A stretch of DNA of 64,000 bases from the NCBI GenBank assembly GCA_964035575.1, contig OZ037839.1, positions 868,001-932,000 of the forward strand, given 5' to 3'. Source of the stretch: Rhynchopus sp. YZ270_cl-10. Its lineage: Eukaryota. Shown here piece by piece: positions 9,983-55,041 of the stretch. The notes beneath the pieces are model-generated. The model was not told the DNA's origin. It saw nothing but the letters and a program-made list of their open reading frames with translations, and ran no database searches. The translations under genes were made by a program, and so were the position numbers. Every line of letters starts with the position of its first letter. Positions within the stretch are counted from its first letter, which is position 1.

Positions 9983-12318
9983 GAGGGTGGGCGTGTTTTC
10001 CTAGAATTTGACGGACGTAGCTCGTAGAACCCAACGAGGAATGAGAAAAAAGGATAATATTGTGGCGAAATTATAAAAGTAGCGCACCGTGCGCCTGCGG
10101 CGCAAGCTTACCGTAAATTGCATGACATAGGTACTGGGTACTCACCCAAAAAAGTGGACGGCATCTAAAAATGTCCGCCTGCGGCGCGGCAGCCCTTGAC
10201 CCAGTTTCCCCCTTGTCTTGTTCAGTCGGCAGGATCACTTGGCCCATCACCATACACTGATGTTGACCAAAAGCCAAGAACATGTCATTTCGTCAAATTG
10301 ACCCCCACCACAGCGCGGACGGATCCCAAAAACTCCACAAACTAGCTTCTCCAGGTCTTTCGCGCGCGAATCGCGCGAAGAACGTTTTCTGCCTCACCCC
10401 CCTAAGGTCAAAAAAACCGGTTCCTAAAAAAAACTCTGAAAAAAACAAAACAAAAAAAATATTATTGAGATGAACCTACCGGGAGTGAAAAATACGGAAG
10501 TAACAAAGTGGAATGGCATGAAGCATGCAAGCGGAATGTGAAGTGATGTGAAGTGAAGGAAAGAGAGTTGAAGTGAAGGACACGCAGAGAGCACAAGAGG
10601 AACTGTGCCCTTGATCCGACCCCAAAGAAGTGTCCAATGAAGGTGGGTGGTACAGTGGGGATGATTTCTTGCTCACTCAACAAAACACTACTCGACCCGC
10701 CCAAACACACAGAATAATCCTAACACCCCAATTCCCACTCCCGCTTTCTTCACTGCCCCTAAAAACCAACGTCACCTAGTCTGCTGCGTACAACGTTGCT
10801 ACACTTGTCCATTCCGTCGACTTTAGACAACATTTTGCAGTAGGAGAGAAAACTGTAACCAATCGTGGTGACTGCTTGCAGGCCGGTGAAGTCCACTTCC
10901 GACAATGATGTGCAGTTGTAGAGAAAACTGTTACCAATCGTGGTGACTGCTTGCAGGCCGGTGAGGTCCACTTCCGACAATGATGTGCAGTTGTAGAGAA
11001 AAGTGCCACCAATCGTGGTGACTGCTTGCAGGCCGGTGAAGTCAACTTTCGACAACGATGTGCAGTTGTAGAGAAAATTGTTACCAATCGTGGTGACTGC
11101 TTGCAGGCCGGTGAAGTCCACTTCCGACAATGATGTGCAGTTGTCGAGAAAACTGTTACCAATCGTGGTGACTGCTTGCAGGCCGGTGAAGTCCACTTCC
11201 GACAACGATGTGCAGTCGGAGAGAAACCTACCACCAATCGTGGTGACTGCTTGCAGGCCGGTGAAGTCCACTTCCGAAAATGATGTGCAGTTGTAGAGAA
11301 AATTGTTACCAATCGTGGTGACTGCTTGCAGGCCGGTGAAGTCCACTTTCGACAACGATGTGCAGTTGTAGAGAAAATTGTTACCAATCGTGGTGACTGC
11401 TTGCAGGCCGGTGAAGTCCACTTTCGACAACGATGTGCAGTTGTAGAGAAAATTGTTACCAATCGTGGTGACTGCTTGCAGGCCGGTGAAGTCCACTTCC
11501 GACAACGTTGTGCAGTTGTTGAGAAACTCGTCACCAATCGTGGTGACTGCTTGCAGGCCGGCGAAGTCCACTTTCGACAACGATGTGCAGGTGTTGAGAA
11601 AATTGTTACCAATCGTGGTGACTGCTTGCAGGCCGGTGAAGTCCACTTCCGACAACGTTGTGCAGTTGTTGAGAAACCCGCCACCAATCGTGGTGACTGC
11701 TTGCAGGCCGGCGAAGTCCACTTTCGACAACGTTCTGCAGCCGTGGAGAAACCCGCCACCAATCGTGGTGACGCAGGGTAATGCAGGCAGGTGCAGTGTG
11801 ATGCCACAGTTGTCATCCACATTGGGTACGCAACTGAAACCAATGCGCGTTACGTCACTACCTGAGAAGAAGTCTTCTGGAATCTCAGTCGCAACTTCTG
11901 ACTGAAGAAGCAAGCTGGCCACCTTCGGATCCTCCACCTGCTGCAACCTTTCTGCTGGTAAACGTTTTTTAAAAATAGGATGGAGCACCCCGGTCCGAAA
12001 AGGAATGCAGCCACCCCTGGCTTCAGGCTCGCGAACCCAGTATTGCAGTAACACTGGGTCTCACGGGCCAAAAACCGAACAAAGAAAAGGAAAATGTTTG
12101 GGTTCAGCGACAGCGCCAATGGGCTGACGCGAGGCTGAACCAACTTAAAATAAAATAAAAAATCTTGTATCAACTTGAAAAGGAAAAGCAATGAACAGCA
12201 ACAGAGCCATTTGGGCTTACGCGTCGCTATAGTAACTGAAAAACAATGTTTTAAAAACAAGAATGTCGTTGACCAAGATTGAAATACACGAAAAAGGTAA
12301 AATACTAAGAATTGCCTC

Positions 12319-14342
12319 ATATTCCATGGGCATCGTTTCTGATGTTGTAGTTTGTCTGCTGAGTGATCACGCGCCCCCCCTACTAGGGAGGTCTTAGGTT
12401 CATGCTTCGGCTAGCACGTAAAAGCTACCATGTCGCCGAAGTTAGCGGTCCTCGTATTCCATGAGGTCTTTCAGATGTTGTTGTTTGACTGCTGAGTGAT
12501 CATGCGCCCCCCCTACTAGGGAGGTCTTAGGTTCATGCTTCGGCTTGCACGAAAAAAGCTACCATGTCGCCGAAGTTAGCGGTCCTCGTATTCCATGAGG
12601 TCTTTCAGATGTTGTTGTTTGACTGCTGAGTGATCACGCGCCCCCCCTACTAGGGAGGTCTTAGGTTCAGGCTTCGGCTAGCACGTAAAAGCTACCATGT
12701 CGTCGAAGTTAGCGGTCCTCGTATTCCATGAGGTCTTTCAGATGTTGTTGTTTGACTGCTGAGTGATCACGCGCCCCCCCTACTAGGGAGGTCTTAGGTT
12801 CAGGCTTCGGCTAGCACGTAAAAGCTACCATGTCGTCGAAGTTAGCGGTCCTCGTATTCCATGAGGTCTTTCAGATGTTGTTGTTTGACTGCTGAGTGAT
12901 CACGCGCCCCCCCTACTAGGGAGGTCTTAGGTTCATGCTTCGGCTAGCACGTAAAAGCTACCATGTCGTCGAAGTTAGCGGTCCTCGTATTCCATGAGGT
13001 CTTTCAGATGTTGTTGTTTGACTGCTGAGTGATCACGCGCCCCCCCTACTAGGGAGGTCTTAGGTTCATGCTTCGGCTAGCACGTAAAAGCTACCATGTC
13101 GTCGAAGTTAGCGGTCCTCGTATTCCATGAGGTCTTTCAGATGTTGTTGTTTGACTGCTGAGTGATCACGCGCCCCCCCTACTAGGGAGGTCCTAGGTTC
13201 GGGCTTCGGCTTGCACGTAGAAGCTACCATGTCGCCGAAGTTAGCGGTCCTCGTATTCCATGAGGTCTTTCAAATGTTGTTGTTTGACTGCTGAGTGATC
13301 ACGCGCCCCCCCTACTAGGGAGGTCTTAGGTTCATGCTTCGGCTTGCACGTAAAGAACTACCATGTCGCCGAAGTTAGCGGTCCTCGTATTCCATGAGGT
13401 CTTTCAGATGTTGTTGTTTGTCTGCTGAGTGATCACGCGCCCCCCCTACTAGGGAGGTCTTAGGTTCATGCTTCGGCTAGCACGTAAAAGCTACCATGTC
13501 GTCGAAGTTAGCGGTCCTCGTATTCCATGAGGTCTTTCAGATGTTGTTGTTTGACTGCTGAGTGATCACGCGCCCCCCCTACTAGGGAGGTCTTAGGTTC
13601 ATGCTTCGGCTAGCACGTAAAAGCTACCATGTCGTCGAAGTTAGCGGTCCTCGTATTCCATGAGGTCTTTCAGATGTTGTTGTTTGACTGCTGAGTGATC
13701 ACGCGCCCCCCCTACTAGGGAGGTCTTAGGTTCATGCTTCGGCTAGCACGTAGAAGCTACCATGTCGCCGAAGTTAGCGGTCCTCGTATTCCATGAGGTC
13801 TTTCAGATGTTGTTGTTTGTCTGCTGAGTGATCACGCGCCCCCCCTACTAGGGAGGTCTTAGGTTCATGCTTCGGCTAGCACGTAAAAGCTACCATGTCG
13901 TCGAAGTTAGCGGTCCTCGTATTCCATGAGGCATTTCTGATGTAGTTTGTCTGCTGAGTGATCACGCGCCCCCCCTACTAGGGAGGTCTTAGGTTCATGC
14001 TTCGGCTTGCACGTAAAAGCTACCATGTCGCCGAAGTTAGCGGTCCTCGTATTCCATGAGGCATTTCTGATGATGTAGTTTGTCTGCTGAGTGATCACGC
14101 GCCCCCCCCACTAGGGAGGTCTTAGGTTCATGCTTCGGCTTGCACGTAAAAGCTACCATGTCGTCGAAGTTAGCGGTCCTCGTATTCCATGAGGTCTTTC
14201 AAATGTTGTTGTTTGACTGCTGAGTGATCACGCGCCCCCCCTACTAGGGAGGTCTTGGGTTCAGGCTTCGGCTAGCACGTAAAAAGCTACCATGTCGCGA
14301 AGTTAGCGGTCCTCGTATTCCATGAGGCACTTCAGATGTTGT
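12319..14342. repeat. About 15 tandem copies of a 133-bp unit
   Basis: GTTAGCGGTCCTCGTATTCCATGAGG recurs at 12441, 12575, 12708, 12841, 12974, 13107, 13240 ... about 14302; near-identical units with no unique spacers. Confidence 0.96.
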
Positions 14343-14361
14343 TCTTCTTTTTCTTCTTGTT

Positions 14362-14427
14362 CCGAGTCTTTGCCGCAGTCCACTGCGTTGCCCGGGGTCA
14401 CCTCGTGGAGGTGCTCGGTAAAACCCC
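14362..14427 (-). ncRNA. HDV-like self-cleaving ribozyme (predicted)
   Basis: GGGGUU(P1) UUA CCGAGC(P2) ACC(P3) UCCACGA(L3) GGU(P3') GACCCC(P1') GG(P1.1) GCAA CGCAG-UGGA-CUGCG(P4) GCAAA(J4/2 with catalytic C) GACUCGG(P2'). Confidence 0.85.
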
Positions 14428-14882
14428 CTGCTGCAACCTTTCTGCTGTGATGTTTGTCTCACCCAATGCATGAAGAGCTGATATGGCTTCGTATTTCATC
14501 GTTTTCGTCAACACGACTGTGTCTCCAGCACTCAGTTCTGTGATGTCCTCTCCTTCCTCCTTCCCTCCGAAGCCCATGCGGAAGCTGTCTTCGCACAACT
14601 CTGCTGCAGTCGCCACCTTCTGCCGCATCGTCTCCGTTGTGTCCTTCTCACCCACCTCCATCACGAAGTCGTTCCCCAAGCCCTGGATAGTCAGTTCCAT
14701 TTTATGTGTCTCTTGATGTATCTCTGTGGGTGGGTTGTTGGGTAAGGAAGAGCTTTTAACCCGCAAACCCCAAGATTTTTTGTCATCTGAATGATGGTCA
14801 CTAGGGGAACGGTAGGGGCTAGGTCACCCATCTATAATTTATAGAATCGCAATTTATAGATTTGTAATTTATAGATTAATTA

Positions 14883-15282
14883 CAGGGGGGTAGCCAAATA
14901 AGAGGGGCGCCGCTCTTATTCGGCGTGCCTAATCGCAAAGTATTGGGTTTTCCGAGCTTTCGGGGTCAACTTATGGGGTCCTGTACAAAACCTTAAGGGG
15001 GGTCCAAAAAAAATTTTACCACCAATTTTTGCCCACAAAAAAGTTATTTCTCAGCGCAAAGTGACTCCATCACAGCACGCACAGACTCCCGAGAATCGGA
15101 AAAAAAAATTGGCAAAAATCGGTCGAAAATTTTTTCAGGCCCCCAACCAGTACCTCCCTTAAGACTTTGTACAGGAGGGGGGTGCCCCTCTTATTGGCCA
15201 GAGTTCGCCAGATCCCAGGGTGCCGCTCTTATTACCCCTGCCGCTCTTATTCGGCATGCCGCTCTTATTAGGCCCCCCCCTG
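14883..15282. mobile_element. Tc1/mariner-type MITE
   Basis: TA|CAGGGGGG..AATAAGAG ... CTCTTATTAGGCCCCCCCCTG|TA. Confidence 0.7.
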
Positions 15283-19160: not shown

Positions 19161-19292
19161 TTGATATTTGATAATGGGTAAACTGAATTGGTTATTTGGA
19201 TTTGGGGTTTGTGTGAGTATTTCTAGAGATGAGATCAAAAACGGTTTGATATTCCCGTAGTTGAGCGATTAGGTGAAAAAAAGCTTAAATTA

Positions 19293-19424
19293 CCGTAATC
19301 GTAAAAATTGTGGACCGTAAAAATGTTCCAGTTTGCCAAAAAAACCCAAAAAGTTCCAGAATTTTTACGGTCCAAGTATTATACGGTCCAAAATTTTTAC
19401 GGTCCACAATTTTTACGATTACGG
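19293..19424. mobile_element. MITE
   Basis: TA|CCGTAATCGTAAAAATTGTGGACCGTAAAAA ... TTTTTACGGTCCACAATTTTTACGATTACGG|TA. Confidence 0.85.
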
Positions 19425-19606
19425 TAGAGAAAATGTTGCAGGAGTTTTGGCGATATGAATACTAACGAATGAAGGGTGCATGACCTCTCACTCCCACTCA
19501 TGCACATCTCTGGTGGGGGCGTACTTCGTCACGCTCCTGTAAGGGCTGCCCTGATTGAATCTTCCTATGGAAACTATAGCGAAATAGTGCCTGAGTTTTT
19601 TTAAAA

Positions 19607-24374: not shown

Positions 24375-24832
24375 CAGTATACACAGTATACACAGTATAC
24401 ACAGTATACACAGTATACACAGTATACACAGTATACACAGTATACACAGTATACACAGTATACACAGTATACACAGTATACACAGTATACACAGTATACA
24501 CAGTATACACAGTATACACAGTATACACAGTATACACAGTATACACAGTATACACAGTATACACAGTATACACAGTATACACAGTATACACAGTATACAC
24601 AGTATACACAGTATACACAGTATACACAGTATACACAGTATACACAGTATACACAGTATACACAGTATACACAGTATACACAGTATACACAGTATACACA
24701 GTATACACAGTATACACAGTATACACAGTATACACAGTATACACAGTATACACAGTATACACAGTATACACAGTATACACAGTATACACAGTATACACAG
24801 TATACACAGTATACACAGTATACACAGTATAC
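24375..24832. repeat. (CAGTATACA)n 9-bp minisatellite, about 51 units
   Basis: Perfect tandem repeat. Confidence 0.97.
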
Positions 24833-24864
24833 GCGGTATACTCCACAGTAGGGTGAAAACGTGG

Positions 24865-25245
24865 GCGGGCAGCGTGGGAGACCAGCGCAGTGAGGAGAGC
24901 CAGGAGCGCAGCAGGGCACGCAGCCATTTCCTGTCGAAGTCATCGTGGGGACGGAACAAAGGTTGCAGCTGTTCTCCAGGCGTGAGTGGCAGATTGTTGA
25001 TACGGAGACTGTTGTTCAGAGACAACCAGTGTATGAGGATGCTCCCCATCGCTGGAGGTAGCATCAATACTGTCCTTCAGGGCAGTAGGGATAACTCCGC
25101 AGTTCGACACACAGTTAGGCCACGGCGACCTGTCAGCAGTTGTGACGGAGTGGAAACTAGGATCTGAGCGTATAGCATCGCAGGCAGGGCAGGACCACCA
25201 TAAGTGCTCATTCGTGTCGTCAGCTTCCCGATCGCAGTGGGGCCG
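24865..25245 (-). pseudogene. Degenerate LINE ORF2 fragment (zinc-finger region)
   Basis: Minus strand reads PHCDREADDTNEHLWWSCPACDAIR..WPNCVSNCG and, after a frameshift, SWLSSLRWS. This matches CVHCEAGVDENHKHLWWECEAWSSIR..WPNCLAICG..SWLGGLQWS of the intact ORF2. Confidence 0.8.
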
Positions 25246-27213: not shown

Positions 27214-27362
27214 TATTGCGTGATGTAAAGTGCACTTTATATCACGAGGGAGCTATGGTTCCGAGTTGTAGGTTTTAGTACACGAGCGCAGCGAGTGTAC
27301 TAATATGCAACTCGGAACCATAGCTCCCGAGTTATATGAAGTGCGCTTTACAGAATGCAATA
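27214..27362. mobile_element. About 150-bp fold-back MITE
   Basis: TGTAAAGTGCACTT..GGGAGCTATGGTTCCGAGTTG..TAGTACAC / GTGTACTA..CAACTCGGAACCATAGCTCCC..AAGTGCGCTTTACA. Confidence 0.8.
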
Positions 27363-27370
27363 CGATATTT

Positions 27371-43052: not shown

Positions 43053-43498
43053 TTTATGTGTCTCTTTGATGTATCTCTGCTGGTGGGTTGTTGGGTAAGG
43101 AAGAGCTTTTAACCCGCAAACCCCAAGATTTTTTATCATCTGAATCCAAAGAAGCAAGAATTTATAACTTTTTAAAGTTTTCAGATTTATTAGATACGAG
43201 GGAGGGTTTGGTGGGGAAGAACCTTTTTTTGCGTTTTTTTGGCCGTGTTTCATCGCGCTGTTTTCAGTGACACTCTGTCAATAACACACAAACACACGCG
43301 ACTCACACCAATGTACATATGTCTGCCGACGTTTCGGCAATCGTCAGTAGCACTCACACACGAGCAGACTCCACCGATATTTCGGTGCACCCGTTCTTGT
43401 CCCTGTTTCAATCACTCGCGGATCGACTTACACAAACCCCACACTCCCGGCCTACGTACGTATAGCCAGAGAGCTAAAACACAAATAATTTTCTACCT

Positions 43499-43684: not shown

Positions 43685-45618
43685 ATCGCAGCCAACGTGA
43701 AGGGCATTCTCAACCCCGGCAGCCCGACATGGGCGGTAACCCACACACGCACACACCTCGACCTGTCGGTGAAATGTGGCTCTACTCCAACCCGCCCCGT
43801 ATTAGAAAAATGGAAAAAATGATGGGAGTAGGGTACGGTGTTCAATTTCCTTTTAGCATTGCATGTAATCATATAAAATAAAATGGATGCTTTGTCACGG
43901 CGTACGAAAGTGCTTCGAGGAGTTTTTTTTGAGAAAATTCCAAAAAAAAAAAAAAAAAAACGCTTGAATTTTTAGGGAAAAGCGCTTTTTTCCCTTAAGG
44001 GGTTTGTTAAGGGGGTTTAAGTCCACACTACAAGTGACCCAAACCAAATTTATCGAGTCGCCGATTTCCCGCTGTGGTCATTTTTCTGATAAAAATTACA
44101 AACGCAGTGCCATTTTATGGGAAGCTTTTTTAGAAATGTTGCGTACCGTGTCTTCGCCAGGAACTTTTGGGTGCCATGACCGCTGTTTACTGATAAGAAG
44201 GCTGACATCCACTGCGGCTTGTGGACGGCCACCTGCACCGGCCTCGGAAGAGTACAGTGTACAGGCCTCCTGCACAACAGCCCGGTAGGAAGTGAGAAGG
44301 AGCGAATGTCGCTGATTCGGAGGAACTCTGACTGTGCTTGGTTAACATTCGTCTCTCTGCCGGAGGCTACGATTGCAGGGGGGGTTTTTTTGGTACCATG
44401 CAACGGAAGTTTTTCAAAACTCAAAAATCCTGGCGGCGGGGCCGATAGTCGTCTTTTCCTTTTTTGATAGGGGGACGGGGCGGGGTGTGCATGCAAAGTT
44501 AAATGGAATGACATGAAGCATGCAATCGGAATGTGAAGTGTGGTGAGGTGAAGAACACGCAGAGAGCACAAGAGGAACTGTGCCCTTGATCCGACCCCAA
44601 AGAAGTGTCCAATGAAGGTGGGTGGTACAGTGGGGATGATTTCTTGCTCACTCAACAAAACACTACTCGACCCGCCCAAACACACAGAATAATCCTAACA
44701 CCCCAATTCCCACTCCCGCTTTCTTTACTGCCTCTAAAAACCAACGTCACCTAGTCTGCTGCGTACAACGTTGCTACACTTGTCCATTCCGTCGACTTTC
44801 GACAACGTTGTGCAGTTGGTGAGAAAATAATCACCAATCGTGGTGACTGCTTGCAGGCCGGTGAAGTCCACTTCCGACAACATTTTGCAGTGGGAGAGAA
44901 ACCCTTCACCAATCGTGGTGACTGATTGCAGGCCGGTGAAGTCCAATTTCGACAACATTTCGCAGTCGGAGAGAAACCCTTCACCAATCGTGGTGACTGC
45001 TTGCAGGCCGGTGAAGTCCACTTTCGACAACGATGTGCACCTGTAGAGAAACCAGTCACCAATCGTGGTGACTGCTTGCAGGCCGGTGAAGTCCACTTTC
45101 GACAACGATGTGCACCTGTAGAGAAACCAGTCACCAATCGTGGTGACTGCTTGCAGGCCGGTGAAGTCCACTTCTGACAACGTTGTGCACTCGGAGAGAA
45201 ACTTGTCACCAATCGTGGTGACTGCTTGCAGGCCGGTGAAATCCACTTCCGACAACGTTTCGCAGTAGGAGAGAAAATCGTCACCAATCGTGGTGACGCA
45301 GGGTAATGCAGGCAGGTGCAGTGTGACGCCACAGTTGTCATCCACATTGGGTACGCAACTGAAACCAATGCGCGTTACGTCACTACCTGAGAAGAAGTCT
45401 TTTGGAATCTCAGTCGCAACTTCTGCCTGAAGAAGCAAGCTGGCCACCTTCGGATCCTCCACCTGCTGCAACCTTTCTGCTGTGATGTTTGTCTCACCCA
45501 ATGCATGAAGAGCTGATATGGCTTCGTACTTCATCGTTTTCGTCAACTGGTGGGGGCCCGTTTTCGATGCATGCACCCCTATCCGAGATAGGTGATACAA
45601 TACATCGTGGAGGTGATG

Positions 45619-48600
45619 TTACATAAGTCCATCACCGCCCCTGCTGTGCCCATCCTTCTGCTTCGTCTGCTTCTTCTTGAAGAAGCCTCCCAGCGTCGTC
45701 TGACGCCCCTTCGAGGTGTCGTGGTGGCGGCGGCAGCAGTGCTCCAGCGTACTCTTCTCTTGCACACAGTTCCCGCACCTCGAGAGTCTATGCTTAGTGC
45801 ATGCTTCGTGTCGGATCGGTAACCCGTCGTCGTTGGAGTGGTGCGCAAAGCAGCAATGCATCAGGTCTGCCTGGGCGTTCTTCGAGCAGGCATCACACTT
45901 CGTCTTCCGGTGCAGCACACATATCGCAAACTGGAAGATCGGAACCGCTCCTTCAGGTGCCTTCACGGGTGCGTCCCCTGGACGCACGTGCTCATGGTGC
46001 CGGTAGCGAGCATGCGCAGATGTCTCCTGTTCAGCCCGCTGGATGAATGGTAGTGCCCTCCTGCCCCTAACTTCTGTGGAGGGGTACGCCGTCTCAGCAG
46101 AATACTCCCCCATCCATGTACCTCTCGCTCTATCGCCACCACGGAGCTCCGCCTCAGACATGCCTTCGGAGCTGCGTTGCAGACGGTACGCCACACCAGC
46201 ATCGTATAGCGCACGCAATGCCTTCAACGTTTCTTCTCCGCCGGCAAAGATAGGACGGCGGTCGATGCCTGTGATGGCGTTCGCCCCAAACGAAGCGAGA
46301 ACATGCGTTACCTTCACCTTCCCCGGATGGAGAGAGCTCTCCGAAAAGGTTCTGAGTGAAGCCAACATATGCCCAAAGGTGGTCGTCTTCGCCATTTCTC
46401 TGTGGGCCAGCGCTACTGGCACCACGTCGTCATCATCGTCGTCTTCCTCACTCCCGTCGTCTTCCCCCCCATTGTTGACTTCTTCCCCAGTCCCATCCCT
46501 CGGCTGCTTCAGCTTCGGCGCTATTCTGCCGGTCTTGTCCCCAGGTCGGATGTCCATCCCTGTGGCAACCTCGAAGTCGATGAGCAGCTCCATGTGGGAG
46601 ACTTCACGTCCAGCTTCGTCGCTCCATTGTAAACCACCCAGCCAGGAGGCAAACGCCAGCAGCAGCGCACGTCCATACGGCCACCTCCTTTTCAGGGGGG
46701 TGTAGTCCACCAAACTGTTCGCGTGTTGCGTCGTCGTGTCCAACTCCGGCGCCCACGTCCACGGGTATCGGTCTTCTTGCAGTCGCGGGTTCGTCGCTTC
46801 CGGTCTGCTCCACTTGGAGCGTGCGATGAGGATGCGCACCATCATCTTCTGCAGGTCTGCAACACGGGCGCATTCCAAAGGTGTGTCCGGTGTGCACATG
46901 CCGCAGATAGCGAGACAGTTTGGCCAGGTCGTTCTGTCAATGTCCAACAGCAAGGGGTACTCCGCACGAATGCTACTCCATGCTTCACATTCCCACCACA
47001 AGTGTTTGTGATTTTCGTCCACCCCCGCTTCGCAGTGCACGCAGATGGCCGAGTCCCGTATGCGCGCTCTCGCAAGTCGCACCCCCGTTATCGCACCGTC
47101 AGCTACAATGTGTCGTAGCGTCCCCGCCTCGTAATCCGTCAAAGTTTTGCTTCGGGTGAGAGCAAGGGTTTTCTCCTTATCCACCCCCGCTTCAATACCC
47201 TTCAGGTTAGCTCTGCCTTTGCCATTGGCCTTCGCAGTCGTCTTCGTACGGGAGAGTCGAATGAAGAACATCCGTTCTCGCACAACGTGGCCCAGTCTAC
47301 CCAAGCTTACTGTCTTCACATCAACGATGCTCCCATCGTGCGTTTTCACTTTTGTCGTGTCTATCCATGACCACGCAAGGCGGCTGAGGGCTCGCGCAAT
47401 CAACCCGATGGGTCCTCCAGTCTTCGCCTGCTTCGCTTTCGCACGTGACCTGCACTTTTCGACCAGCAAACAGATCTCATCCGATTTGCGTATCATCGCC
47501 GCCCACGTCATGATCCTTCTGTAGTCGAATGCCACCGAGGGGTCGAGCAGATGGCCTTTCTCGAAGACATTCAGCATGACCGGTACGCTTCTTCGGTTCA
47601 TCTTGTTCACGCCGTGGACCCCTTTCTCCACTGCAGTTGCAAGACTGTTCACGTATTTCCCAGGTGGGTCCTGCACCGTGATACCGTACACAGATTTCGA
47701 CATCACTGCAGCCTGCATGATGCCTGCTTTCTCACCTTGAGTCAGCGGGAGGCATCCCACCTTACCTGCTAGCGGTCCGCATGCGTCGATGGTGTCTTCC
47801 AGCTTCGTCGGGAGCGTGGGCGTCCCAGCCTGTCGGGCCTGCACCGTCGCCCCCAGGCACTCCGACTTCTCGACGCGAGTAAGATCCGCGCCGTTCATCT
47901 GCACAGTTTCCTCTTCATCAGGACGGTTGCTCTGCCACGTGCTCTTCCCCGCGTGGACGCGTTGTCCCGTCAAGTCTGCAAAGTGTCCGGTGAAGGCGAC
48001 ACCCGCTCGCAGCTGGTCGAGGGTCTTCGTCAGGAGGTTGGTGTCGTCAGCATACGCCAGCCCCTGCGTGCCCGTTTCCTTCTCCACCCCGTTCATCCAC
48101 ACCGCCACCAGCGCATTCAGGAAGATTACGCTCAGTGGGCATCCTTGGAGGATACCATTCGTCGCAAACCATTCTTTGCCAAGACCTGCCGGAAGTTTGA
48201 AACGCCTCCCCAGCTTCTTGTATATACCCCGGATGGGGCGCATCATGTTGTCGGGAAGACCCAACCGTTCGACGAGCTGGAACATGATCTCTTGGGGAAC
48301 ACGGTCAAAGCACTTCTGATAGTCGAAGGAGGCTAGATAGATAGGTGTGTCGTCTATCAGAGCCTCCTCCATCTTCGCACAGAGAAACCACAGCAGGTCT
48401 TCGGTTCCGTGTTTGTTCCGGAAGCCGTGTTGCCGCTCGTGAATCCAGGATTCCTGCCACGTCGCCACTTTGCGGAGTCGAGTCGCCGCCCATAACCTGT
48501 ACATCACACTGGTGATGGTAATGGGTCGCTGCTTCAGGGGCTCCTCGCCTTCTCCTTTGGGGATGAGCACCACCAACGCCCTCGCAATCACCCTGGGCCA

Positions 48601-50625
48601 GTTCCCAGTATCCTCGATCAGGTTCAGGCAGCGCGCGAGTTCCTCCAGCAGTGTCAAAGGCAGTTCCTTCAGCTCCTCCACCCTCCACCCATCGAGGCCT
48701 GCCGCCTTTTTCCGCTTCATCTTGCCGATGGTCGTACGGAGGTCGTCGGCGGTCAGGGGTTCGCATACACAAGGGGTCCCTTCAGGAATGTGTTCCTTGA
48801 ACCTATCAAAGAACGTCGTCCACGCAGGTTCTTCGGAATCGTCGTACATCCGGAACACCCCACCCCAAGCACGGTCATCCATGAGCAGTTCATCCATCTC
48901 CTGGAGGTTAGCTGTAACCGTGCCGTCCTCCCGTTTCAGGAACGTGGTGTGTGACGACGTAGCCTTCCGCAGGAACGAGAACACCTTCGCTGGGTTCTCC
49001 TTCATGTGTTCTTTCATTGTGCGGCGCCATTCCTTGATGCGGGCCCGACGCCGTTGCTCCAGCAGGACAAAACCCCTCTTCTTCAAGCAGCCAAGGAGCC
49101 CACACAACGCCTCTATCCCAGGAAGGTCGAGGTCCCAGGTGTCACTCTTCAGTAGATGCTTCTTCTTGCGGATTTTCGCCCACAGCTGCCGTTCGTTCAA
49201 CGATTCTGCAGATGGCTGACCGAAGCGCTTCCTCCGATCACCAATGAGCTGCTCCATCTGACGACATGTCTTCTGCAGTTGAGCCGTCTCCAGGTTCACA
49301 GCATCCGGCGTGTCGCAGTCCATGCGGGCCGTCCGATGTCGGAGAACGTCGGGTTGCACCTCCCCTCTCCCCCTGTGGCGTTGTTGCTTCGGGTCTGAGT
49401 CTGCAGCACCTCTCTTCAGCAGGTAGTCCTCCGCAATCTTGCAGAAGCGTGCCCAGCGATCTTCAACCGACATCTTCGTCAGGTCGGCTTCAGGGGCAGC
49501 GTTCTCCTGCATCACCTTCGCTGCAAGCTCCTTCTCCTTCTTCGCCGGCCATTTCGTCCAGTCGTCGCCGATCAAAGAAAGGGGAGGGCGTGCCTGCGGT
49601 GCCTTCTGCTCGTATCGCGTCAGGTCTAACGTCAACACCACCGGTCTGTGTACCGGGAGGCAGCTCTCTTTCCAGACCACCACTTTGGAGATCGCAGGGG
49701 CAGCCACGTGGTTCGCCAGCACCAAGTCGATACGTCTGCCAGACGATGTGGAGGTATAGCATGTGTTCTCTGCTGCCTTACCCAACTGCTGTGCGTAGGT
49801 ATCTGCCGCATCAACCCATTTGCCGGAGGAGATGGCCGCTCGAATGGCTAGACTTTCGTTAGCCTCTACGTTGAAGTCTCCGGCAATGAACACCGGTATG
49901 TCCCCAAGGCTGGCTGCTTCTTCAAAGATGCCTGTCAGGAGTTGCTCCGTGCGGTCGCTGTCAGCACACACACCATAAAACGAGAACACAGAGATGTTAC
50001 GTCCCCCGCTCCCATATGCCACCTGCGCATGCGTAAAGCGGCATTCGTTCCACGCTTGTTGGGCACATTGTGGCGGTACTGCTCTGGTCGGTATGTCAGC
50101 GCACGTCATGATCGCAACTCCACCATTCTGCGTGCGCGTGCGCAGAGGGTCTGATCCCTGGCTTCGTCTGCAAGGGGCACCAAAGAGAAGCTGCTTGGCA
50201 CCATACCCCTTCACGTCGTTTGCTGCCCCCTTCATCTCTTCTTCTGTGAGGCGCACCTCCTGCAGAGCACAAACGTCCACATCCCACTCCCCCACCGCAG
50301 GGTGTGCCCTCAGAGACGTCACGTTTGCCGTGCCAAGCGACATGGTCGACGGACCCGGATGCTCCTCCACGTCTCCACATGTCAGCAGTGACCCCCTGCC
50401 CAAAAACGCCCCTCGTCGCCTCCCTCGACGCACCCTGTGTCCGACCCCTCGCCCCACCCCCCTTCGCGTTCTACCCTTACCCCTTGTCCCCGACAGCATA
50501 CAGCCCGCAGAGCGCAAACGATGCTGACCCCTTGTTGGGGAGACAGTTTTCACAAAAACGTCTCGTTCTCCAACTACGCACGAAGAAGCCAATCCTGTGC
50601 CGTACCCTTCCACCGCACCACACCG
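45619..50625 (-). CDS. LINE ORF2: 2A-like peptide, APE endonuclease, reverse transcriptase, zinc finger, Cys/His repeats, PIP box
   Basis: APE motifs ANVTSL, LQE, GDFN, RIDLV, HRPV; RT motifs KAAGLDG, RPITI, QHGF, FDYQKCFD, LQGCPLS, YADD; CxxC..HLWWEC. Confidence 0.95.
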   Translation of the reverse strand, partial: RCGAVEGYGTGLASSCVVGERDVFVKTVSPTRGQHRLRSAGCMLSGTRGKGRTRRGVGRGVGHRVRRGRRRGAFLGRGSLLTCGDVEEHPGPSTMSLGTANVTSLRAHPAVGEWDVDVCALQEVRLTEEEMKGAANDVKGYGAKQLLFGAPCRRSQGSDPLRTRTQNGGVAIMTCADIPTRAVPPQCAQQAWNECRFTHAQVAYGSGGRNISVFSFYGVCADSDRTEQLLTGIFEEAASLGDIPVFIAGDFNVEANESLAIRAAISSGKWVDAADTYAQQLGKAAENTCYTSTSSGRRIDLVLANHVAAPAISKVVVWKESCLPVHRPVVLTLDLTRYEQKAPQARPPLSLIGDDWTKWPAKKEKELAAKVMQENAAPEADLTKMSVEDRWARFCKIAEDYLLKRGAADSDPKQQRHRGRGEVQPDVLRHRTARMDCDTPDAVNLETAQLQKTCRQMEQLIGDRRKRFGQPSAESLNERQLWAKIRKKKHLLKSDTWDLDLPGIEALCGLLGCLKKRGFVLLEQRRRARIKEWRRTMKEHMKENPAKVFSFLRKATSSHTTFLKREDGTVTANLQEMDELLMDDRAWGGVFRMYDDSEEPAWTTFFDRFKEHIPEGTPCVCEPLTADDLRTTIGKMKRKKAAGLDGWRVEELKELPLTLLEELARCLNLIEDTGNWPRVIARALVVLIPKGEGEEPLKQRPITITSVMYRLWAATRLRKVATWQESWIHERQHGFRNKHGTEDLLWFLCAKMEEALIDDTPIYLASFDYQKCFDRVPQEIMFQLVERLGLPDNMMRPIRGIYKKLGRRFKLPAGLGKEWFATNGILQGCPLSVIFLNALVAVWMNGVEKETGTQGLAYADDTNLLTKTLDQLRAGVAFTGHFADLTGQRVHAGKSTWQSNRPDEEETVQMNGADLTRVEKSECLGATVQARQAGTPTLPTKLEDTIDACGPLAGKVGCLPLTQGEKAGIMQAAVMSKSVYGITVQDPPGKYVNSLATAVEKGVHGVNKMNRRSVPVMLNVFEKGHLLDPSVAFDYRRIMTWAAMIRKSDEICLLVEKCRSRAKAKQAKTGGPIGLIARALSRLAWSWIDTTKVKTHDGSIVDVKTVSLGRLGHVVRERMFFIRLSRTKTTAKANGKGRANLKGIEAGVDKEKTLALTRSKTLTDYEAGTLRHIVADGAITGVRLARARIRDSAICVHCEAGVDENHKHLWWECEAWSSIRAEYPLLLDIDRTTWPNCLAICGMCTPDTPLECARVADLQKMMVRILIARSKWSRPEATNPRLQEDRYPWTWAPELDTTTQHANSLVDYTPLKRRWPYGRALLLAFASWLGGLQWSDEAGREVSHMELLIDFEVATGMDIRPGDKTGRIAPKLKQPRDGTGEEVNNGGEDDGSEEDDDDDDVVPVALAHREMAKTTTFGHMLASLRTFSESSLHPGKVKVTHVLASFGANAITGIDRRPIFAGGEETLKALRALYDAGVAYRLQRSSEGMSEAELRGGDRARGTWMGEYSAETAYPSTEVRGRRALPFIQRAEQETSAHARYRHHEHVRPGDAPVKAPEGAVPIFQFAICVLHRKTKCDACSKNAQADLMHCCFAHHSNDDGLPIRHEACTKHRLSRCGNCVQEKSTLEHCCRRHHDTSKGRQTTLGGFFKKKQTKQKDGHSRGGDGLM
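50350..50400 (-). other. 2A-like (StopGo) peptide GRGSLLTCGDVEEHPGP
   Basis: 16/17 identical to T2A GRGSLLTCGDVEENPGP; lies immediately before the APE domain. Confidence 0.85.
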
Positions 50626-53600
50626 TCACCGCCCCACATCGCGCAGGGTGTTGCGGCCTACCAACCTGTTGTCTAGTCCCTGGACGGGACGAAACGCGAT
50701 CTCGATGACGTCCCCCGCTACCTTCACGACAGTCACCGGGATGGCTGCGCCGTTGCCTCCCTCCTCGCAGTACTCCATGGAGTCGCCAGCCTCCAGCACT
50801 GCGTTCCCGTACGACTCCTCGTTCTTCTCGTTCCCCTCCGCCTGCTCTTTTGCGGGGACTTCCGTCCGCATCCTGCGCGGCGGACTCAGCAGCGCCACCG
50901 TCTCACCGGACTCACTGCGGTCTTCCCGCTTGCCCGCCAGGGTCACGGCAGGTGGCGCCACCGGCACTCTGGGAGCTGGCGAGGTCTCCGCGTCCTCCTC
51001 GACAGCCGCACAGTCTGGCGATGTCTGCACCGGCAGTGCCATGTCGGCGTCGTCCATCCGTGCCTCGGCGTCTGGTGTCGTGGGTGCGGGGGTCCCTGCG
51101 CCGGCGTTCTCCCCTTGCTCCTGCTCACGTTGTGCCTGCACTGCTGCAGCACGTCTCTCCTTCTTTGCCGCCGCTTCTTCCTGTGCTGCCCGTAGTGCCT
51201 CCCGTCGTTTCTCAGCGGCCACAATGTTCCTGCGTTTCTTCTTCTTCTTCGGGGACGCCACCACAACCTCCACATCACCGGCGCCAGCAACGTCCGCAGT
51301 CGGCGATGTGTCCCTGGGCGGTGCTGACCGCGACCGGTTCCGTGCTTCGGCGACTTCTACGACTACCCCCGGCTTTCCACGGATGGTGTCAGCCCTCCTC
51401 CTCCTGCGGCGCGGGCTCAGCTCCTCAACCTCACTGGACCCATTTCCCGCACGTATCCGCTTACCTGCCATCGTTGCGGGCTCCGGTGACATCACGTCCT
51501 CGGCATTCCCGTCTGGGAGTGTGTCCAACAATTCATCCGCCATCTGCATCTCGGGTGTTGTGGGCGCTGCAGTGGGCACTGCGACAGTCGGGGCCGTAGT
51601 AGCAGCAGCCTCCCCCTCGCGCTGCCTGGCGTTCTCAGCAGCAACTGCAGCAGCGGCGGCGGCGGCTTCCTCCTCCTGCTGCCAGAGGATTGCAGCAGCA
51701 GCGTCGGCTTCCTCACGCTGCTTGAGGACTGCAGCAGCGGCGGCCTTCTCCTCCTCCTCACGCTGCCTCAGGGCTGCAGCAGCAGCGGCCTTCACCTCCT
51801 CCTCGCGCTGCTTGAGGGCTGCAGCAGCGGCGGCCTTCGCCTCCTCCTCACGCTGCCTCAGGGCTGCAGCAGCGGCGGCCTTCACCTCTTCCTCACGCTG
51901 CTTGAGGACTGCAGCAGCAGCGGCCTTCTCCTCCTCCTCACGCTGCCTCAGGGCTGCAGCGGCGGCGGCCTTCGCCTCCTCCTCCTCCTGCCTCAGGGCT
52001 GCAGCAGCAGCAGCGGCGTCCTCTCTCGCAGCAGCCGTGGCCTCCTTCGGCATGGAACAGAGCTTGCCCACTTGCTCCAGCATGGCCGCCATCCACACCT
52101 GCTGCTCCTTCCGTTGCTCCACCCGTTCTTCCCGCAACTGGGCCGTCAGCGACGCCACCGTCTCCTGCAGCAGGGTCTGGAGGCGCTCGCCCACCAGGCG
52201 GTCCAACCTCTCCTCCATCCGGCGCTCCAACTCCGCCCACTTCTCGCCTGCGTCCTCAGGTGATGGGGCGGGCGACGTCATTGGGGGTTGACCCTTCGGC
52301 GTCCGTTGCTTCGTTGTTGTTGTTGTTGTTGGTGGAGGTGTCCTTGATGTGGTAGTGGGTGGCTTCGCTGCAGCTGGCGCTGTTGCTGCTTGGCGTGCGT
52401 GCGCAGCCCAGGACACCCAACCGTAGTCGGGCCCAGTGCCACGGTTGTGCTGCGCTGTCGCCGCCGGCGCCGTCCGGGCACCAAATGTCGGACCAGACGC
52501 ATGTGCGGTATGTACCTTGGCCTTCTGTTTCGCCCCCGGACCCGGAGCCGTTGCCCTACCCCCGCCCTCCTTATGCCCATCCTTGCGGATCAGCAGCCCC
52601 TTCCCGTTCCCCTCCATGTCCATGGCCCACGTCGGCGGATCCAGCTTCGCTCCCACCACCCAACGCCATCCCTCCAGCCTCCGCAGCGGCGTCACCGTCC
52701 ACCCTGCGCCTGCCAGCGACTCCATCACCGCTTCACCGGACGTACCCGACGGGAAACCGGACACCACGTATCGACCTTCGGGCGCCTTTCCCTCCTGCAT
52801 GAGTGCCGCATTTGCACGCTCCTGATCCTCCTTCTTCACCCGTATCCCCAGGGACTCGTACCTCGCCGCCACTCCCCATCCCCCCATCCGGGTCGCCAGC
52901 CCCTGGGCCTCTTCTAGCCCCACCCCGTCCACCAACCACACGACAGGCAGATGCTCCGACTGCTCGCGTCTCATCCGGAAGAAGACACCCCCCTTCCCAC
53001 TCTGCTTCAGGCAGCGCTCTGCTACGTCCTCCCTTACGTCGGCCACCGAGGAGATCAGCTTACCCTCCTGCCACAATGGTGGGCGGTTGAGGTTGCACCC
53101 CACCTCCGCACGCATCTTCTTCCCCGCTGACACCAGGTCCTGCGCTTGTCCTGCTGTCGGCCTCATCGTCACAAACACCGTCACCAGTTGGACGGCCGCC
53201 GACGCCTTCTTCCCCCCGTTTCCTCTCCCCGGCCTCAGCCTCCCCACCACGTACACGGCCGTGCTCGCCGCCCCGTTCACCTTCCCCCCATTCCCCTGCT
53301 TACCCATGGGGCACTGCATCTTCTCCCCACCAGACTTCGGGAAGGACCCGAAACCCACCCACGTCACGCCCGGCGTGCGCGCGATCTTCCCCTCTGCCTC
53401 TACCTCTCTACCCTGCGGCACAAGACAGACCCCCTCCGACTTATCCACCACCTCCCCCCACGGCACAAGCGTCGATCCCACCCACTCCGATTGCAGCAAT
53501 GTCAGCGCTGCCGTCGTCTTCTTTTTCCCTCCCCCCTGGGTGAAGCCCCCCTCCGTCCCCGCCTTCGCATCGTTTCGCGGTTGCGGCACGGTGTACGGCT

Positions 53601-54129
53601 TCTCCGTCACCTCCAACGCACCCCCCACCATCGCCTTGCGGGCCCGGTCTTCGGCGGCTTCTTCCCCCGTGCTCGTGGGGAGGACGCACAGGTAGTGGCA
53701 TGCGTCCACGTACGCCACCGTCACCGCTGCACCGCTGCCCTTCTCCTTCGGGTGCACCTTCAGCACACGCACCTCCCCATCCTTCACCGAGAAGGCATAC
53801 ACCTCCCGCATCAGCACCTCCGCCAACGCCTTCAGGGTCAGGTGGTCCCCCCAGGACCCCTGCTTCGCCATCGCCGAGCAGTACCTCCGGTAGGCGGACG
53901 GTCCTCCGTCAACGTGCTCACCCCAATTCTCCGCTTCCCGTTCCAACACCCCCACCGCCATCTCCCTCAGCCCCCCGTGCGCCGTGGCGTCTCCGTGCAC
54001 AGCCATCGAGACCGCCTTAAATTGGCAGTCTCCGTTCCCCCCTGCGTCCTTTACCCGCATGTCGAAGCCCCTCAGGTATTTCTGCAGCACCCCCTTTTCC
54101 CCCCCTTGGCCACCTGCCCCTCCGCACAT
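50626..54129 (-). CDS. LINE ORF1: N-terminal OTU-like cysteine protease, RRM-like region, Ala/Glu coiled-coil repeats
   Basis: GNGDCQFKAVS..WGDHLTLKALA..CHY; RYVVSGFPSGTS; (AAAAALRQREEE)n; first in-element ATG at 54129. Confidence 0.85.
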   Translation of the reverse strand: MCGGAGGQGGEKGVLQKYLRGFDMRVKDAGGNGDCQFKAVSMAVHGDATAHGGLREMAVGVLEREAENWGEHVDGGPSAYRRYCSAMAKQGSWGDHLTLKALAEVLMREVYAFSVKDGEVRVLKVHPKEKGSGAAVTVAYVDACHYLCVLPTSTGEEAAEDRARKAMVGGALEVTEKPYTVPQPRNDAKAGTEGGFTQGGGKKKTTAALTLLQSEWVGSTLVPWGEVVDKSEGVCLVPQGREVEAEGKIARTPGVTWVGFGSFPKSGGEKMQCPMGKQGNGGKVNGAASTAVYVVGRLRPGRGNGGKKASAAVQLVTVFVTMRPTAGQAQDLVSAGKKMRAEVGCNLNRPPLWQEGKLISSVADVREDVAERCLKQSGKGGVFFRMRREQSEHLPVVWLVDGVGLEEAQGLATRMGGWGVAARYESLGIRVKKEDQERANAALMQEGKAPEGRYVVSGFPSGTSGEAVMESLAGAGWTVTPLRRLEGWRWVVGAKLDPPTWAMDMEGNGKGLLIRKDGHKEGGGRATAPGPGAKQKAKVHTAHASGPTFGARTAPAATAQHNRGTGPDYGWVSWAAHARQAATAPAAAKPPTTTSRTPPPTTTTTTKQRTPKGQPPMTSPAPSPEDAGEKWAELERRMEERLDRLVGERLQTLLQETVASLTAQLREERVEQRKEQQVWMAAMLEQVGKLCSMPKEATAAAREDAAAAAAALRQEEEEAKAAAAAALRQREEEEKAAAAAVLKQREEEVKAAAAAALRQREEEAKAAAAAALKQREEEVKAAAAAALRQREEEEKAAAAAVLKQREEADAAAAILWQQEEEAAAAAAAVAAENARQREGEAAATTAPTVAVPTAAPTTPEMQMADELLDTLPDGNAEDVMSPEPATMAGKRIRAGNGSSEVEELSPRRRRRRADTIRGKPGVVVEVAEARNRSRSAPPRDTSPTADVAGAGDVEVVVASPKKKKKRRNIVAAEKRREALRAAQEEAAAKKERRAAAVQAQREQEQGENAGAGTPAPTTPDAEARMDDADMALPVQTSPDCAAVEEDAETSPAPRVPVAPPAVTLAGKREDRSESGETVALLSPPRRMRTEVPAKEQAEGNEKNEESYGNAVLEAGDSMEYCEEGGNGAAIPVTVVKVAGDVIEIAFRPVQGLDNRLVGRNTLRDVGR

Positions 54130-54166
54130 CGCGTCGAGGCTGCCCCCCGCCGCCGTCCTTCTTCCC

Positions 54167-54250
54167 CGCGCTTTAGCAGACGCCTCCCCCCATAGAGGAG
54201 GGGGGCGTCTCCCGAGGGTACCCCGTGGAGGCGCGTCGTCTCTCACCCTC
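54167..54250 (-). ncRNA. HDV-like ribozyme at the LINE 5' end (predicted)
   Basis: GAGGGU(P1)..CGC(P2) GCC(P3) UCCACGG(L3) GGU ACCCUC(P1') GG G AGACGCC..GGCGUCU(P4) GCUAAA GCG(P2'); P2 is short. Confidence 0.75.
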
Positions 54251-55041
54251 TTCATCGTTTTCGTCAACACCACTGTGTCTCCAGCACTCAGTTCTGTGAT
54301 GTCCTCTCCTTCCTCCTTCCCTCCGAAGCCCATGCGGAAGCTGTCTTCGCACAACTCTGTTGCAGACGCCACCTTCTGCCGCATCGTCTCCGTTGTGTCC
54401 TTCTCACCCACCTCAATCACGAAGTCCTTCCCCAAGCCCTGAATAGTCAGTTCCATTTTCTGTGTCTCTTGATGTATCTCTGCGGGTGGGTTGTTGGGTA
54501 AGGAAGAGCTTTTAACACGCAAACCCCAAGATTTTTTATCATCTGAATCCAAAGAAGCAAGAATTTATAACTTTTGAAAATTTTTCAAATTTATTAGATA
54601 CGAGGGAGGGCTTGGTGGGGAAGAACTTTTTTTCGCGTTGTTTTAACTCTGGGAGGGAGAGAAAGAGAGAGAGAGAGGGTTATTGTGGGTAAGTTGTGCG
54701 GGTGTATTAACACCAGCCCAATACCACGGAGAATGGTTCTGCTCAAATAAAAAACTTCAAAATACCGTCTTCGTACAAATTATCGACCATAAAAATGTTC
54801 GACCTTTTCAGGATTTTATTAGAAGTTCGACCTGTTTTACGGTCGAACATTCTTACGACCACGGTAAAAAGGAAAAAGAATTTGCCGTGTTATGAGAAGA
54901 AAGAAAAATAGAGAAGTGGAAAAGTGCAGATGCCTCACCGCACATCGGCAGACGCAGGGCATTGGTTCCCTTCGGGGTTATCAAACCCCAGAGAGCACTT
55001 CTTTGGGGAAAATGAGGCTTTTTGGAGAAAATCTAGACACC

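What the first reader, a model, noticed from the sequence alone, without database searches (positions are those of the whole stretch)
11938..54268. Candidate new LINE/SINE pair: HDV-like ribozyme 5' ends, shared ACCA 3' ends, 18-bp TSDs
Seen: two insertions with unrelated bodies (11956-14427 non-coding; 45548-54250 coding) share their termini logic. Each begins at G1 of a predicted HDV-like ribozyme. Each ends in ACCA without poly(A). Their 3' tails align: SINE TCGGACCGGGGTGC-TCCATC..AAAACG..ACCA versus LINE TCGGATAGGGGTGCATGCATC..AAAACG..ACCA. With those boundaries both TSDs are exactly 18 bp (GCAGAAAGGTTGCAGCAG and GTTGACGAAAACGATGAA). Caveat: microhomology allows 19 bp for the LINE and up to 21 bp for the SINE. 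Known: L1Tc/ingi and NARTc/RIME/SIDER carry 5' HDV-like ribozymes but end in poly(A) with shorter TSDs. Inference: the 2.5-kb element is mobilised in trans by this LINE family through a tRNA-like CCA tail.
Basis: partly seen in the sequence, partly recalled or inferred. Interest (0 to 1): 0.9.

Follow-up and report, generated by a model that had tools for sequence, protein, structure and literature searches.

The report
Retrotransposon targeting a protein-coding gene family
A young retrotransposon in a protist repeatedly lands at the same codon of a protein-coding gene family with hundreds of members and starts with a predicted self-cutting RNA that likely frees it from the host transcript; a short non-coding element beside it has the same end design, but its proposed partnership and CCA-tail mechanism are not established.

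Summary
Both inserts lie at the stated coordinates, empty paralogs confirm the target duplications, and an HDV-like ribozyme fold starts at each 5' boundary and nowhere else in the window. The LINE (OTU-protease ORF1, fixed TGA, 2A-APE-RT ORF2, no RNase H) is site-specific. All 8 copies with a visible flank join this family at the same codon; host flanks are 57-95% identical while full-length elements are 99.8-100% identical, and two copies are 5'-truncated, so the insertions are independent. It works like R1/R2 in rDNA or ingi in RHS genes. The CCA-tail claim is weakened. Other copies end raggedly (AC, ACC, ACCA; SINE-type tails often stop at CGTTTA), although no listed junction shows poly(A). 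The LINE/SINE tail match is marginal (p 0.015-0.06), no tRNA-like fold was found, and SINE-type tails occur outside the LINE's target. The 2.5-kb element is a real multicopy non-autonomous retroelement whose partner is uncertain. Verdict: new variant of a known kind; interest 0.62.

The parts
45548..54250 (-). Full-length APE-RT LINE, 8,703 bp, site-specific for the Ubl-BspA gene family
   Evidence: TSD and empty paralogs; Pfam RVT_1, Exo_endo_phos, OTU; other copies at the same codon
54169..54250 (-). Predicted HDV-like ribozyme at the LINE 5' end (P1 6 bp, P2 only 3-4 bp, long P4); open in the ORF1 frame
   Evidence: Relaxed descriptor hit at the boundary; not found by Rfam; activity untested
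50626..54129 (-). ORF1 from its own ATG to TGA: OTU cysteine protease, a central domain of uncertain fold, an alanine-rich coiled repeat
   Evidence: Pfam OTU E 1e-9; structure predictions uninformative
50626..50628 (-). Single TGA separating ORF1 and ORF2 in the same frame; fixed among copies
   Evidence: Contigs spanning it show 0 other letters in 3 of 4 runs; ORF1 proteins end here and ORF2 proteins P0039, P0049, P0056, P0057 begin just after it
45619..50625 (-). ORF2, 1668 open codons: leader, 2A-like peptide, APE, RT, zinc-knuckle-like and Cys/His C-terminus; no RNase H
50350..50397 (-). 2A-like peptide directly before APE, N-to-H variant (DVEEHPGP); the sister subfamily has DVEENPGP
   Evidence: motif and N-to-H variant described in PMC3708506
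45548..45618 (-). 71-nt 3' UTR: hairpin, AAAACG, ACCA end, no poly(A)
   Evidence: fold z -2.83; ragged ends in other copies
45530..45547 (.). LINE target-site duplication, 3' copy (18 bp)
54251..54268 (.). LINE target-site duplication, 5' copy (18 bp, up to 19)
54251..54456 (-). Ubiquitin-like N-terminal part of the disrupted host gene, in frame with LINE ORF1
44734..45547 (-). BspA-LRR remainder of the host gene disrupted by the LINE
   Evidence: Pfam LRR_5; continuity with paralogs
11956..14427 (-). Non-coding, multicopy non-autonomous retroelement, 2,472 bp
   Evidence: TSD and empty paralogs; other copies and flanks
14362..14427 (-). Predicted HDV-like ribozyme at the 5' end of the non-coding element
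   Evidence: Rfam RF02682 37.7 bits; strict descriptor
12315..14343 (-). Tandem array, 15.2 x 133 bp, 96% matches, no known RNA family
11956..12020 (-). 3' tail (hairpin, A-rich stretch, ACCA) shared with other elements that have different bodies
   Evidence: tables 2, 7, 8
11938..11955 (.). SINE target-site duplication, 3' copy (18 bp, up to 21)
14428..14445 (.). SINE target-site duplication, 5' copy
14428..14700 (-). Ubiquitin-like N-terminal part of the host paralog disrupted by the non-coding element; holds an empty LINE site at 14495-14512

Best explanation
The 8.7-kb element is a young APE-type LINE whose copies insert at one codon of a ubiquitin-like/BspA-LRR gene family with hundreds of members, and which is likely co-transcribed with the host gene and released by a predicted 5' HDV-like ribozyme, as R2 is from rRNA. 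Shown: domain content, open ORFs, recurrent insertion at the same junction in diverged paralogs, 18-bp duplication in the window copy, no poly(A) at any listed junction. Inferred: the endonuclease nicks both strands at fixed positions 18 nt apart; reverse transcription starts within the last 0-2 nt of an ACCA end; ORF2 is made by reinitiation or readthrough past the fixed TGA, then trimmed by the 2A peptide. The 2.5-kb element is a non-autonomous passenger of the same lineage (ribozyme, tandem array, short structured tail). It is likely moved by a LINE of this lineage, more probably a less site-specific sister family than this exact family.
For: Of 9 ORF1 proteins of this type, 8 reach the 5' end; 6 of these 8 (one is the window's) carry a host Ubl N-terminus joined at the identical codon, and 2 start at the element's own Met with no flank visible. 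Of 22 listed ORF2 members (41 in the two clusters), 2 carry a foreign N-terminus; both are Ubl at that codon and both are 5'-truncated at different element positions. Flanks are 57-95% identical, full-length elements 99.8-100%, so they are not co-duplicated copies of one insertion. A further truncated copy joins a Ubl-type flank 2-4 nt short of the site in two runs (joint 49840-54272). An X3 contig keeps the same 3' target boundary with a 2-nt shorter element end. The target family has 376 hits. A non-Ubl flank can be seen by this method: the sister ORF1 type shows 2 visible flanks, 0 of them Ubl. The ribozyme descriptor hits only the two boundaries. Both inserts are co-oriented with the host gene. 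In R2/R1 hybrid SIDEs the passenger uses its partner's site (PMC3414825), which the SINE here does not.
Against: No genome was held, so 5' and 3' junctions of other copies could not be paired and TSD length is measured for one LINE and one SINE copy only. Flanks are visible only when open in frame, which favours in-frame coding targets; targets of most truncated copies are unknown. Five X4 contigs at the LINE 3' end have mixed flanks (agreement 0.59), compatible with diverged paralogs or with other targets. The LINE ribozyme has only a 3-4 bp P2 and is not recognised by Rfam; neither ribozyme was assayed. One of 119 family proteins breaks at the SINE's codon (P0239), hinting at a second hot spot, which would fit locus accessibility rather than a strict nuclease. 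Short conserved segments can suffice for a true LINE/SIDE pair (PMC3414825), so the weak tail match does not exclude this LINE as partner.
Confidence: 0.72

Rival explanations
1. One reading: the 2.5-kb element is the dedicated SINE of this LINE family, and both are primed through a tRNA-like CCA 3' end, encoded or added after transcription.
For: Both window copies end in ACCA with 18-bp minimal TSDs. Observed ends form a ladder: A, AC, ACC, ACCA, which partial CCA addition or ragged initiation on a CCA end would give. Ribozymes share P1/P3/L3 geometry. The 12-of-14 match around CGGA..GGGGTGC occurs exactly in both tails. No poly(A) at any listed junction.
Against: Tail similarity p 0.015 global, 0.06 local. 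No tRNA or acceptor-stem fold. The commonest listed SINE-type end lacks CCA (7, 4, 5 contigs). The SINE's last CA may belong to the target. The SINE does not use the LINE's site, and an identical-tail copy has a non-Ubl flank (X1 record 3).
Confidence: 0.22
2. The Ubl-BspA codon is an RHS-like hot spot: a loosely specific endonuclease prefers a degenerate motif common in this family, and several retroelements pile up there without strict targeting.
For: ingi/RIME and L1Tc/NARTc show relative site specificity and an RHS hot spot (PMC7563717, PMC5814959). Target 18-mers vary between paralogs. Two unidentified breaks lie at the LINE codon (P0296) and the SINE codon (P0239).
Against: 8 of 8 visible flanks of this family are at one codon and 0 elsewhere, while the sister ORF1 type shows 0 of 2 there.
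Confidence: 0.25
3. One ancestral insertion was spread among paralogs by segmental duplication or gene conversion.
For: The host family is tandemly clustered (5 paralogs in this window) and full-length copies are nearly identical.
Against: Flanks differ up to 1-2 codons from the junction and are only 57-95% identical; truncated copies with different breakpoints and from two ORF2 subfamilies share the host junction.
Confidence: 0.04

Closest known systems
ingi/RIME and L1Tc/NARTc of trypanosomes, with the RHS hot spot
   Same: APE-RT LINE with 5' HDV-like ribozyme and a 2A peptide before APE (N-to-H variant also seen in L1Tc); non-autonomous partner with ribozyme head; recurrent insertion in the 5' coding region of a protein-coding multigene family (PMC5814959, PMC7563717, PMC3708506, PMC12278014; passages).
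   Different: Those have one ORF, RNase H, poly(A), shorter TSDs (7-11 nt used in PMC4035085; 9 nt in PMC5814959) and only relative site specificity; LINE and SINE share a near-identical 77-nt head. Here: separate OTU ORF1 plus 2A, no RNase H, no poly(A), 18-bp TSD, heads alike in fold rather than sequence.
R1 (R1Bm, Drosophila R1) and R2/R1 hybrid SIDEs
   Same: APE endonuclease cutting both strands at fixed sites with a fixed duplication (14 bp); ribozyme-headed passengers released from a host co-transcript (PMC1919474 passages; PMC3414825 abstract and section 7).
   Different: Target is 28S rDNA, not protein-coding genes; R2/R1 SIDEs use the partner's site. The family profile here matched human L1 ORF2 and L1-type endonucleases in the PDB, with no R1Bm or TRAS1 endonuclease among the 60 of 67 rows shown.
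R2 and R2 SIDEs
   Same: Self-cleavage from a host co-transcript by a 5' HDV-like ribozyme; multicopy target (PMC3414825 abstract).
   Different: R2 uses a restriction-like endonuclease and a single ORF; the target is rDNA.
Tx1-clade site-specific APE elements (Keno and relatives)
   Same: Site-specific APE elements; the listed targets are rRNA, spliced leader, tRNA, snRNA genes, transposons, microsatellites and telomeres (PMC4640811 passages).
   Different: Protein-coding genes are not in that list; membership of Tx1 could not be tested.
Unclassified Diplonema papillatum APE-RT elements (KAJ9444445.1, KAJ9450885.1)
   Same: About 51% RT identity, same clade in the quick tree (10-row set, SH-aLRT 100), 2A before APE, homologous OTU region upstream.
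   Different: Auto-annotated only; the genome paper defers rigorous TE analysis (PMC10161547).

Membership tests
APE-type non-LTR retrotransposon (LINE) | APE and RT domains in one ORF | tested here: met
   Pfam Exo_endo_phos E 6e-10 and RVT_1 E 2.5e-19
APE-type non-LTR retrotransposon (LINE) | TSD, 5'-truncated copies, no LTRs | tested here: met
ingi/L1Tc clade | RNase H after RT | tested here: not met
   No RNase H hit in P0049 or P0056, though present in relatives P0013, P0025, P0009, P0010
ingi/L1Tc clade | Single ORF | tested here: not met
   Two ORFs separated by a fixed TGA
ingi/L1Tc clade | Poly(A) tail | tested here: not met
   None in the window or in listed junctions (198 and 69 loose-end rows were not shown)
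ingi/L1Tc clade | 5' HDV-like ribozyme and N-terminal 2A | tested here: met
   Predicted only
ingi/L1Tc clade | RT phylogeny with named clade references | not testable with these tools
   No named reference RTs were available; tree holds relatives only
R1 clade | Sequence-specific APE insertion with fixed TSD | tested here: inconclusive
   5' junction fixed in 8 of 8 visible flanks; TSD measured in one copy
R1 clade | Endonuclease/RT similarity to R1Bm or TRAS1 | tested here: inconclusive
   Profile matched L1-type structures; no R1Bm/TRAS1 among 60 of 67 rows shown
L1/Tx1 group | RT phylogeny; L1-type endonuclease; zf-RVT | tested here: inconclusive
   Best PDB match L1 ORF2 (189 bits whole protein); zf-RVT and RVT_3 in relatives; hints only
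HDV-like ribozyme | Nested double pseudoknot with P1, P1.1, P2, P3, P4 and J4/2 cytosine | tested here: met
   the LINE's P2 is short
HDV-like ribozyme | Self-cleavage 5' of G1 | not testable with these tools
   needs an in vitro assay
Pol III SINE (tRNA, 5S or 7SL head) | Small-RNA-derived head | tested here: not met
   No tRNA; Rfam gives only the HDV hit
SIDE (internally deleted LINE) | Head and tail derived from one identifiable LINE | tested here: inconclusive
   Only a 30-nt 77% match at the ribozyme core to this LINE; no protein remnants; parent not identified
CCA-primed retroelements (Mauriceville-type; recalled) | tRNA-like 3' structure ending in invariant CCA | tested here: not met
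   No tRNA-like fold; ragged ends

The most novel reading that the evidence does not exclude
An unnamed clade of APE LINEs in which one family has evolved strict, single-nucleotide targeting of a protein-coding multigene family, lands in frame so that the host ubiquitin-like domain fuses to its OTU protease ORF1, and, together with ribozyme-headed passengers, primes reverse transcription on a non-polyadenylated CCA-type 3' end.
Probability: 0.15. Interest if true: 0.85.

Novelty: new variant of a known kind. Interest (0 to 1): 0.62.

Why it matters
Known target-specific LINEs use RNA genes, repeats or other transposons as safe havens (list in PMC4640811); the RHS hot spot is the closest protein-coding precedent and is described as relative specificity. 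A young APE element that homes to one codon of a several-hundred-member protein family would be a new target class, a candidate new sequence-specific APE endonuclease with an 18-nt stagger, and a force that knocks out members of a repeat-protein family (2 of 5 paralogs in this window are disrupted). It also combines an ORF1 with a 2A peptide, whereas 2A was reported to correlate with loss of ORF1 (PMC3894237, PMC3708506), and it gives a poly(A)-free TPRT system to test how 3' ends are defined.

Tried and rejected
No whole genome was held, so the genome-wide TSD table could not be made. No RNA holder was listed among the runs, so expression was not examined. Viral contigs: no relative of the ORF2 alignment and no match to the shared ribozyme-core pattern. 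Metagenome relatives: 56 loci; the relaxed descriptor gave one hit, on the opposite strand of L028, and Rfam found no HDV family in 9 of the 56; most loci lack termini, so this says nothing about the lineage. ORF1 structure predictions were unusable (mean pLDDT 41 and 34), so no fold search was run. The protein atlas and the representatives search gave no answer. The RT tree is the quick tree, 63 rows, 26 short rows dropped, with no named clade references. No stable structure downstream of the TGA (z 0.70 and -0.65), so readthrough has no structural support; the UGA-C readthrough context is recalled and was not found in PMC5009743. The 133-bp unit has no unusual fold (z -0.95) and no Rfam family; twister or hammerhead readings were considered by eye and dropped. 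The SINE shows no protein remnants of 158 collected element proteins. The tail of P0239 and the end of P0296 match nothing in the window. Earlier findings of the scan: none returned. Literature: 10 searches listed no paper on this family or on a LINE strictly targeting a protein-coding family other than RHS; three wanted papers were not held, Repbase was not available, and 7 of the D. papillatum supplementary files held as text had no hit for ribozyme, target site or hot spot.


Full report
Setting. No genome is held for the window. It is eukaryotic: it carries an SSU rRNA fragment, and the closest named relatives of the RT are Diplonema papillatum proteins at 51% identity. A diplonemid or related euglenozoan host is an inference.

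Observation. Both inserts are on the minus strand at the stated coordinates, each between identical 18-mers; microhomology allows 21 bp for the non-coding element and 19 bp for the LINE. Three empty paralogs per site hold the 18-mer once, so these are true target duplications. Rfam's HDV model from F. prausnitzii matches 14427-14360 at 37.7 bits, under its gathering score of 44, and does not match the LINE end. A pseudoknot descriptor found 14427 alone when strict (3 hits in 100 shuffles) and exactly 14427 and 54250 when relaxed (32 hits in 100 shuffles). A chance hit would not be expected to start on the first base inside a TSD, twice. The tail alignment is there but weak: 76 of 5000 shuffles reach the global and 307 of 5000 the local score.

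Anatomy of the LINE. ORF1 carries an OTU protease; ORF2 (1668 open codons) carries APE and RT and no RNase H. The two ORFs are in one frame with a single TGA between them. The TGA is fixed: spanning contigs show no other letters in three of four runs, and database ORF1 proteins end and ORF2 proteins begin at it. A 2A-like peptide precedes APE, with the N-to-H change known from 20% of L1Tc copies (PMC3708506, passages); the sister subfamily has the canonical NPGP. The ORF2 clusters hold 34 and 7 members, copies of subfamily A mostly 97-100% identical. A D. papillatum gene model has a homologous OTU region, tandem repeats, APE and RT, so the layout is older than this genome.

Target. Both inserts interrupt paralogs of a ubiquitin-like/BspA-LRR family, in the gene's direction, at sites 67 bp apart. 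The family gave 376 hits, of which 120 were listed. Proteins called over other copies reveal their flanks. Of 9 ORF1 proteins of this type, 8 reach the 5' end; 6 of them, including the window's, begin with a host Ubl domain joined at the same codon, and 2 begin at the element's own Met. Of 22 listed ORF2 members, 2 have a foreign N-terminus, both Ubl at that codon and truncated at different element positions. Flanks are 57-95% identical while full-length elements are 99.8-100% identical over 550 residues. Read contigs add a truncated copy joined 2-4 nt short of the site in two runs. The sister ORF1 type (59% identical) shows 2 visible flanks, neither Ubl, so other flanks can be seen by this route. 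Limits: flanks show only when open in frame, most truncated copies have unknown targets, 'same assembly' rests on shared contig lengths, and 5' and 3' junctions of other copies could not be paired.

3' ends. For the LINE, five contigs of run X4 stop matching one base before the terminal A, and one X3 contig ends two bases short at the same target boundary (198 loose-end rows not shown). For the non-coding element, one X1 contig with an identical tail ends in ACC at a non-Ubl flank; one locus seen in X2 and X4 aligns through ACCA but has another body; 7, 4 and 5 contigs in X2, X4 and X3 stop matching after CGTTTA with mixed flanks; others continue with different letters (69 rows not shown). No listed junction shows a poly(A) run. 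The 60-nt tail is therefore shared by several elements at 85% or more, ends raggedly, and is not tied to the LINE's site. The ladder A, AC, ACC, ACCA keeps a CCA model alive, but no tRNA or acceptor-like fold was found.

The non-coding element. It consists of the ribozyme, 15.2 copies of a 133-bp unit and 360 bp of unique 3' sequence. Contigs of its body have about ten times the depth of contigs that run into unique flank (1453 against 96-132 in X2); depth is no copy number, but with the distinct flanks it shows several copies. It has no small-RNA head and no protein remnant, so it is closer to a SIDE or NARTc-type passenger than to a Pol III SINE. One of 119 family proteins breaks at its codon, a hint of a second hot spot.

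Mechanism. Shown: recurrent same-codon insertion, TSDs, co-orientation, absence of poly(A). Inferred: read-through transcription from the host gene, release by the ribozyme as for R2 and its SIDEs (PMC3414825, abstract and section 7), two fixed nicks as for R1Bm (PMC1919474, passages), and initiation within the last bases of the tail. Full-length copies land in frame with the host Ubl domain and the ribozyme region is open only in that frame; I put the chance of this at roughly one in six, so a functional fusion is speculation. In R2/R1 SIDEs the passenger uses the partner's site; the element here does not, which favours a less specific sister family as its driver, though the same paper shows that short conserved tail segments can be enough.

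Comparison. The nearest known system is ingi/RIME and L1Tc/NARTc with the RHS hot spot (PMC7563717, PMC5814959, PMC12278014, PMC4035085; passages). This element fails ingi membership on RNase H, single ORF and poly(A). A family profile matched L1-type structures best, a hint only; the clade could not be fixed without named references. Target lists for sequence-specific LINEs name RNA genes, repeats and transposons (PMC4640811, passages). 2A was reported to go with loss of ORF1 (PMC3894237, first third read). OTU domains are reported from Ginger and Helitron transposons (PMC2836005, passages). The D. papillatum genome paper lists LINE-like ORFs without analysing them (PMC10161547, passages and 7 supplementary files searched). 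Repbase and subscription reviews were not available and may describe this lineage.

Verdict. Observation confirmed; interpretation partly supported. The strongest result is site-specific insertion of a young, ribozyme-headed, poly(A)-less APE LINE into one codon of a protein-coding multigene family. New variant of a known kind; interest 0.62.

Noticed in passing
window 9853-9968: Isolated 116-bp eukaryotic SSU rRNA fragment (Rfam 78 bits) just upstream of a Ubl-BspA paralog; scattered rRNA pieces are also reported in D. papillatum.
   Followed up: no
window 8774-9835, 10759-14700, 41376-43277, 44734-54456, 56726-58345: Five co-oriented ubiquitin-like/BspA-LRR paralogs with 75-bp repeats; the family has at least 376 proteins, none named among the 120 listed.
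   Followed up: partly
window 25000-25278: Degenerate fragment of a related LINE (zinc-knuckle region, E about 1e-10) followed by 52 copies of a 9-bp repeat at 24375-24841; no TSD found.
   Followed up: partly
proteins P0056, P0057: ORF2 only 77% identical to the window's but with an identical 58-residue leader after the TGA; suggests recombinant subfamilies sharing one ORF1.
   Followed up: partly
proteins P0132, P0140: Sister ORF1 type whose translated 5' leader keeps the ribozyme-region peptide (75% identical) with changes compatible with a preserved P4; flanks are not Ubl. Candidate driver of the non-coding element.
   Followed up: partly
proteins P0239, P0296: Two Ubl-family proteins that break into unidentified sequence at the SINE codon and at the LINE codon respectively.
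   Followed up: partly
proteins P0013, P0025, P0032: More distant relatives with OTU, APE, RT and an RVT_3-type RNase H in a single ORF.
   Followed up: no
window 45603-45615: The LINE 3' UTR repeats the 11-mer that forms P3/L3 of the non-coding element's ribozyme; probably chance.
   Followed up: no
window 1694-1909, 4263-4399, 19291-19426, 27214-27362, 29631-29820, 55063-55607: Several MITE-like inverted repeats and small insertions between paralogous intergenic regions.
   Followed up: no
window 12030-12130: Stable hairpin series just upstream of the non-coding element's tail (z -3.76).
   Followed up: no
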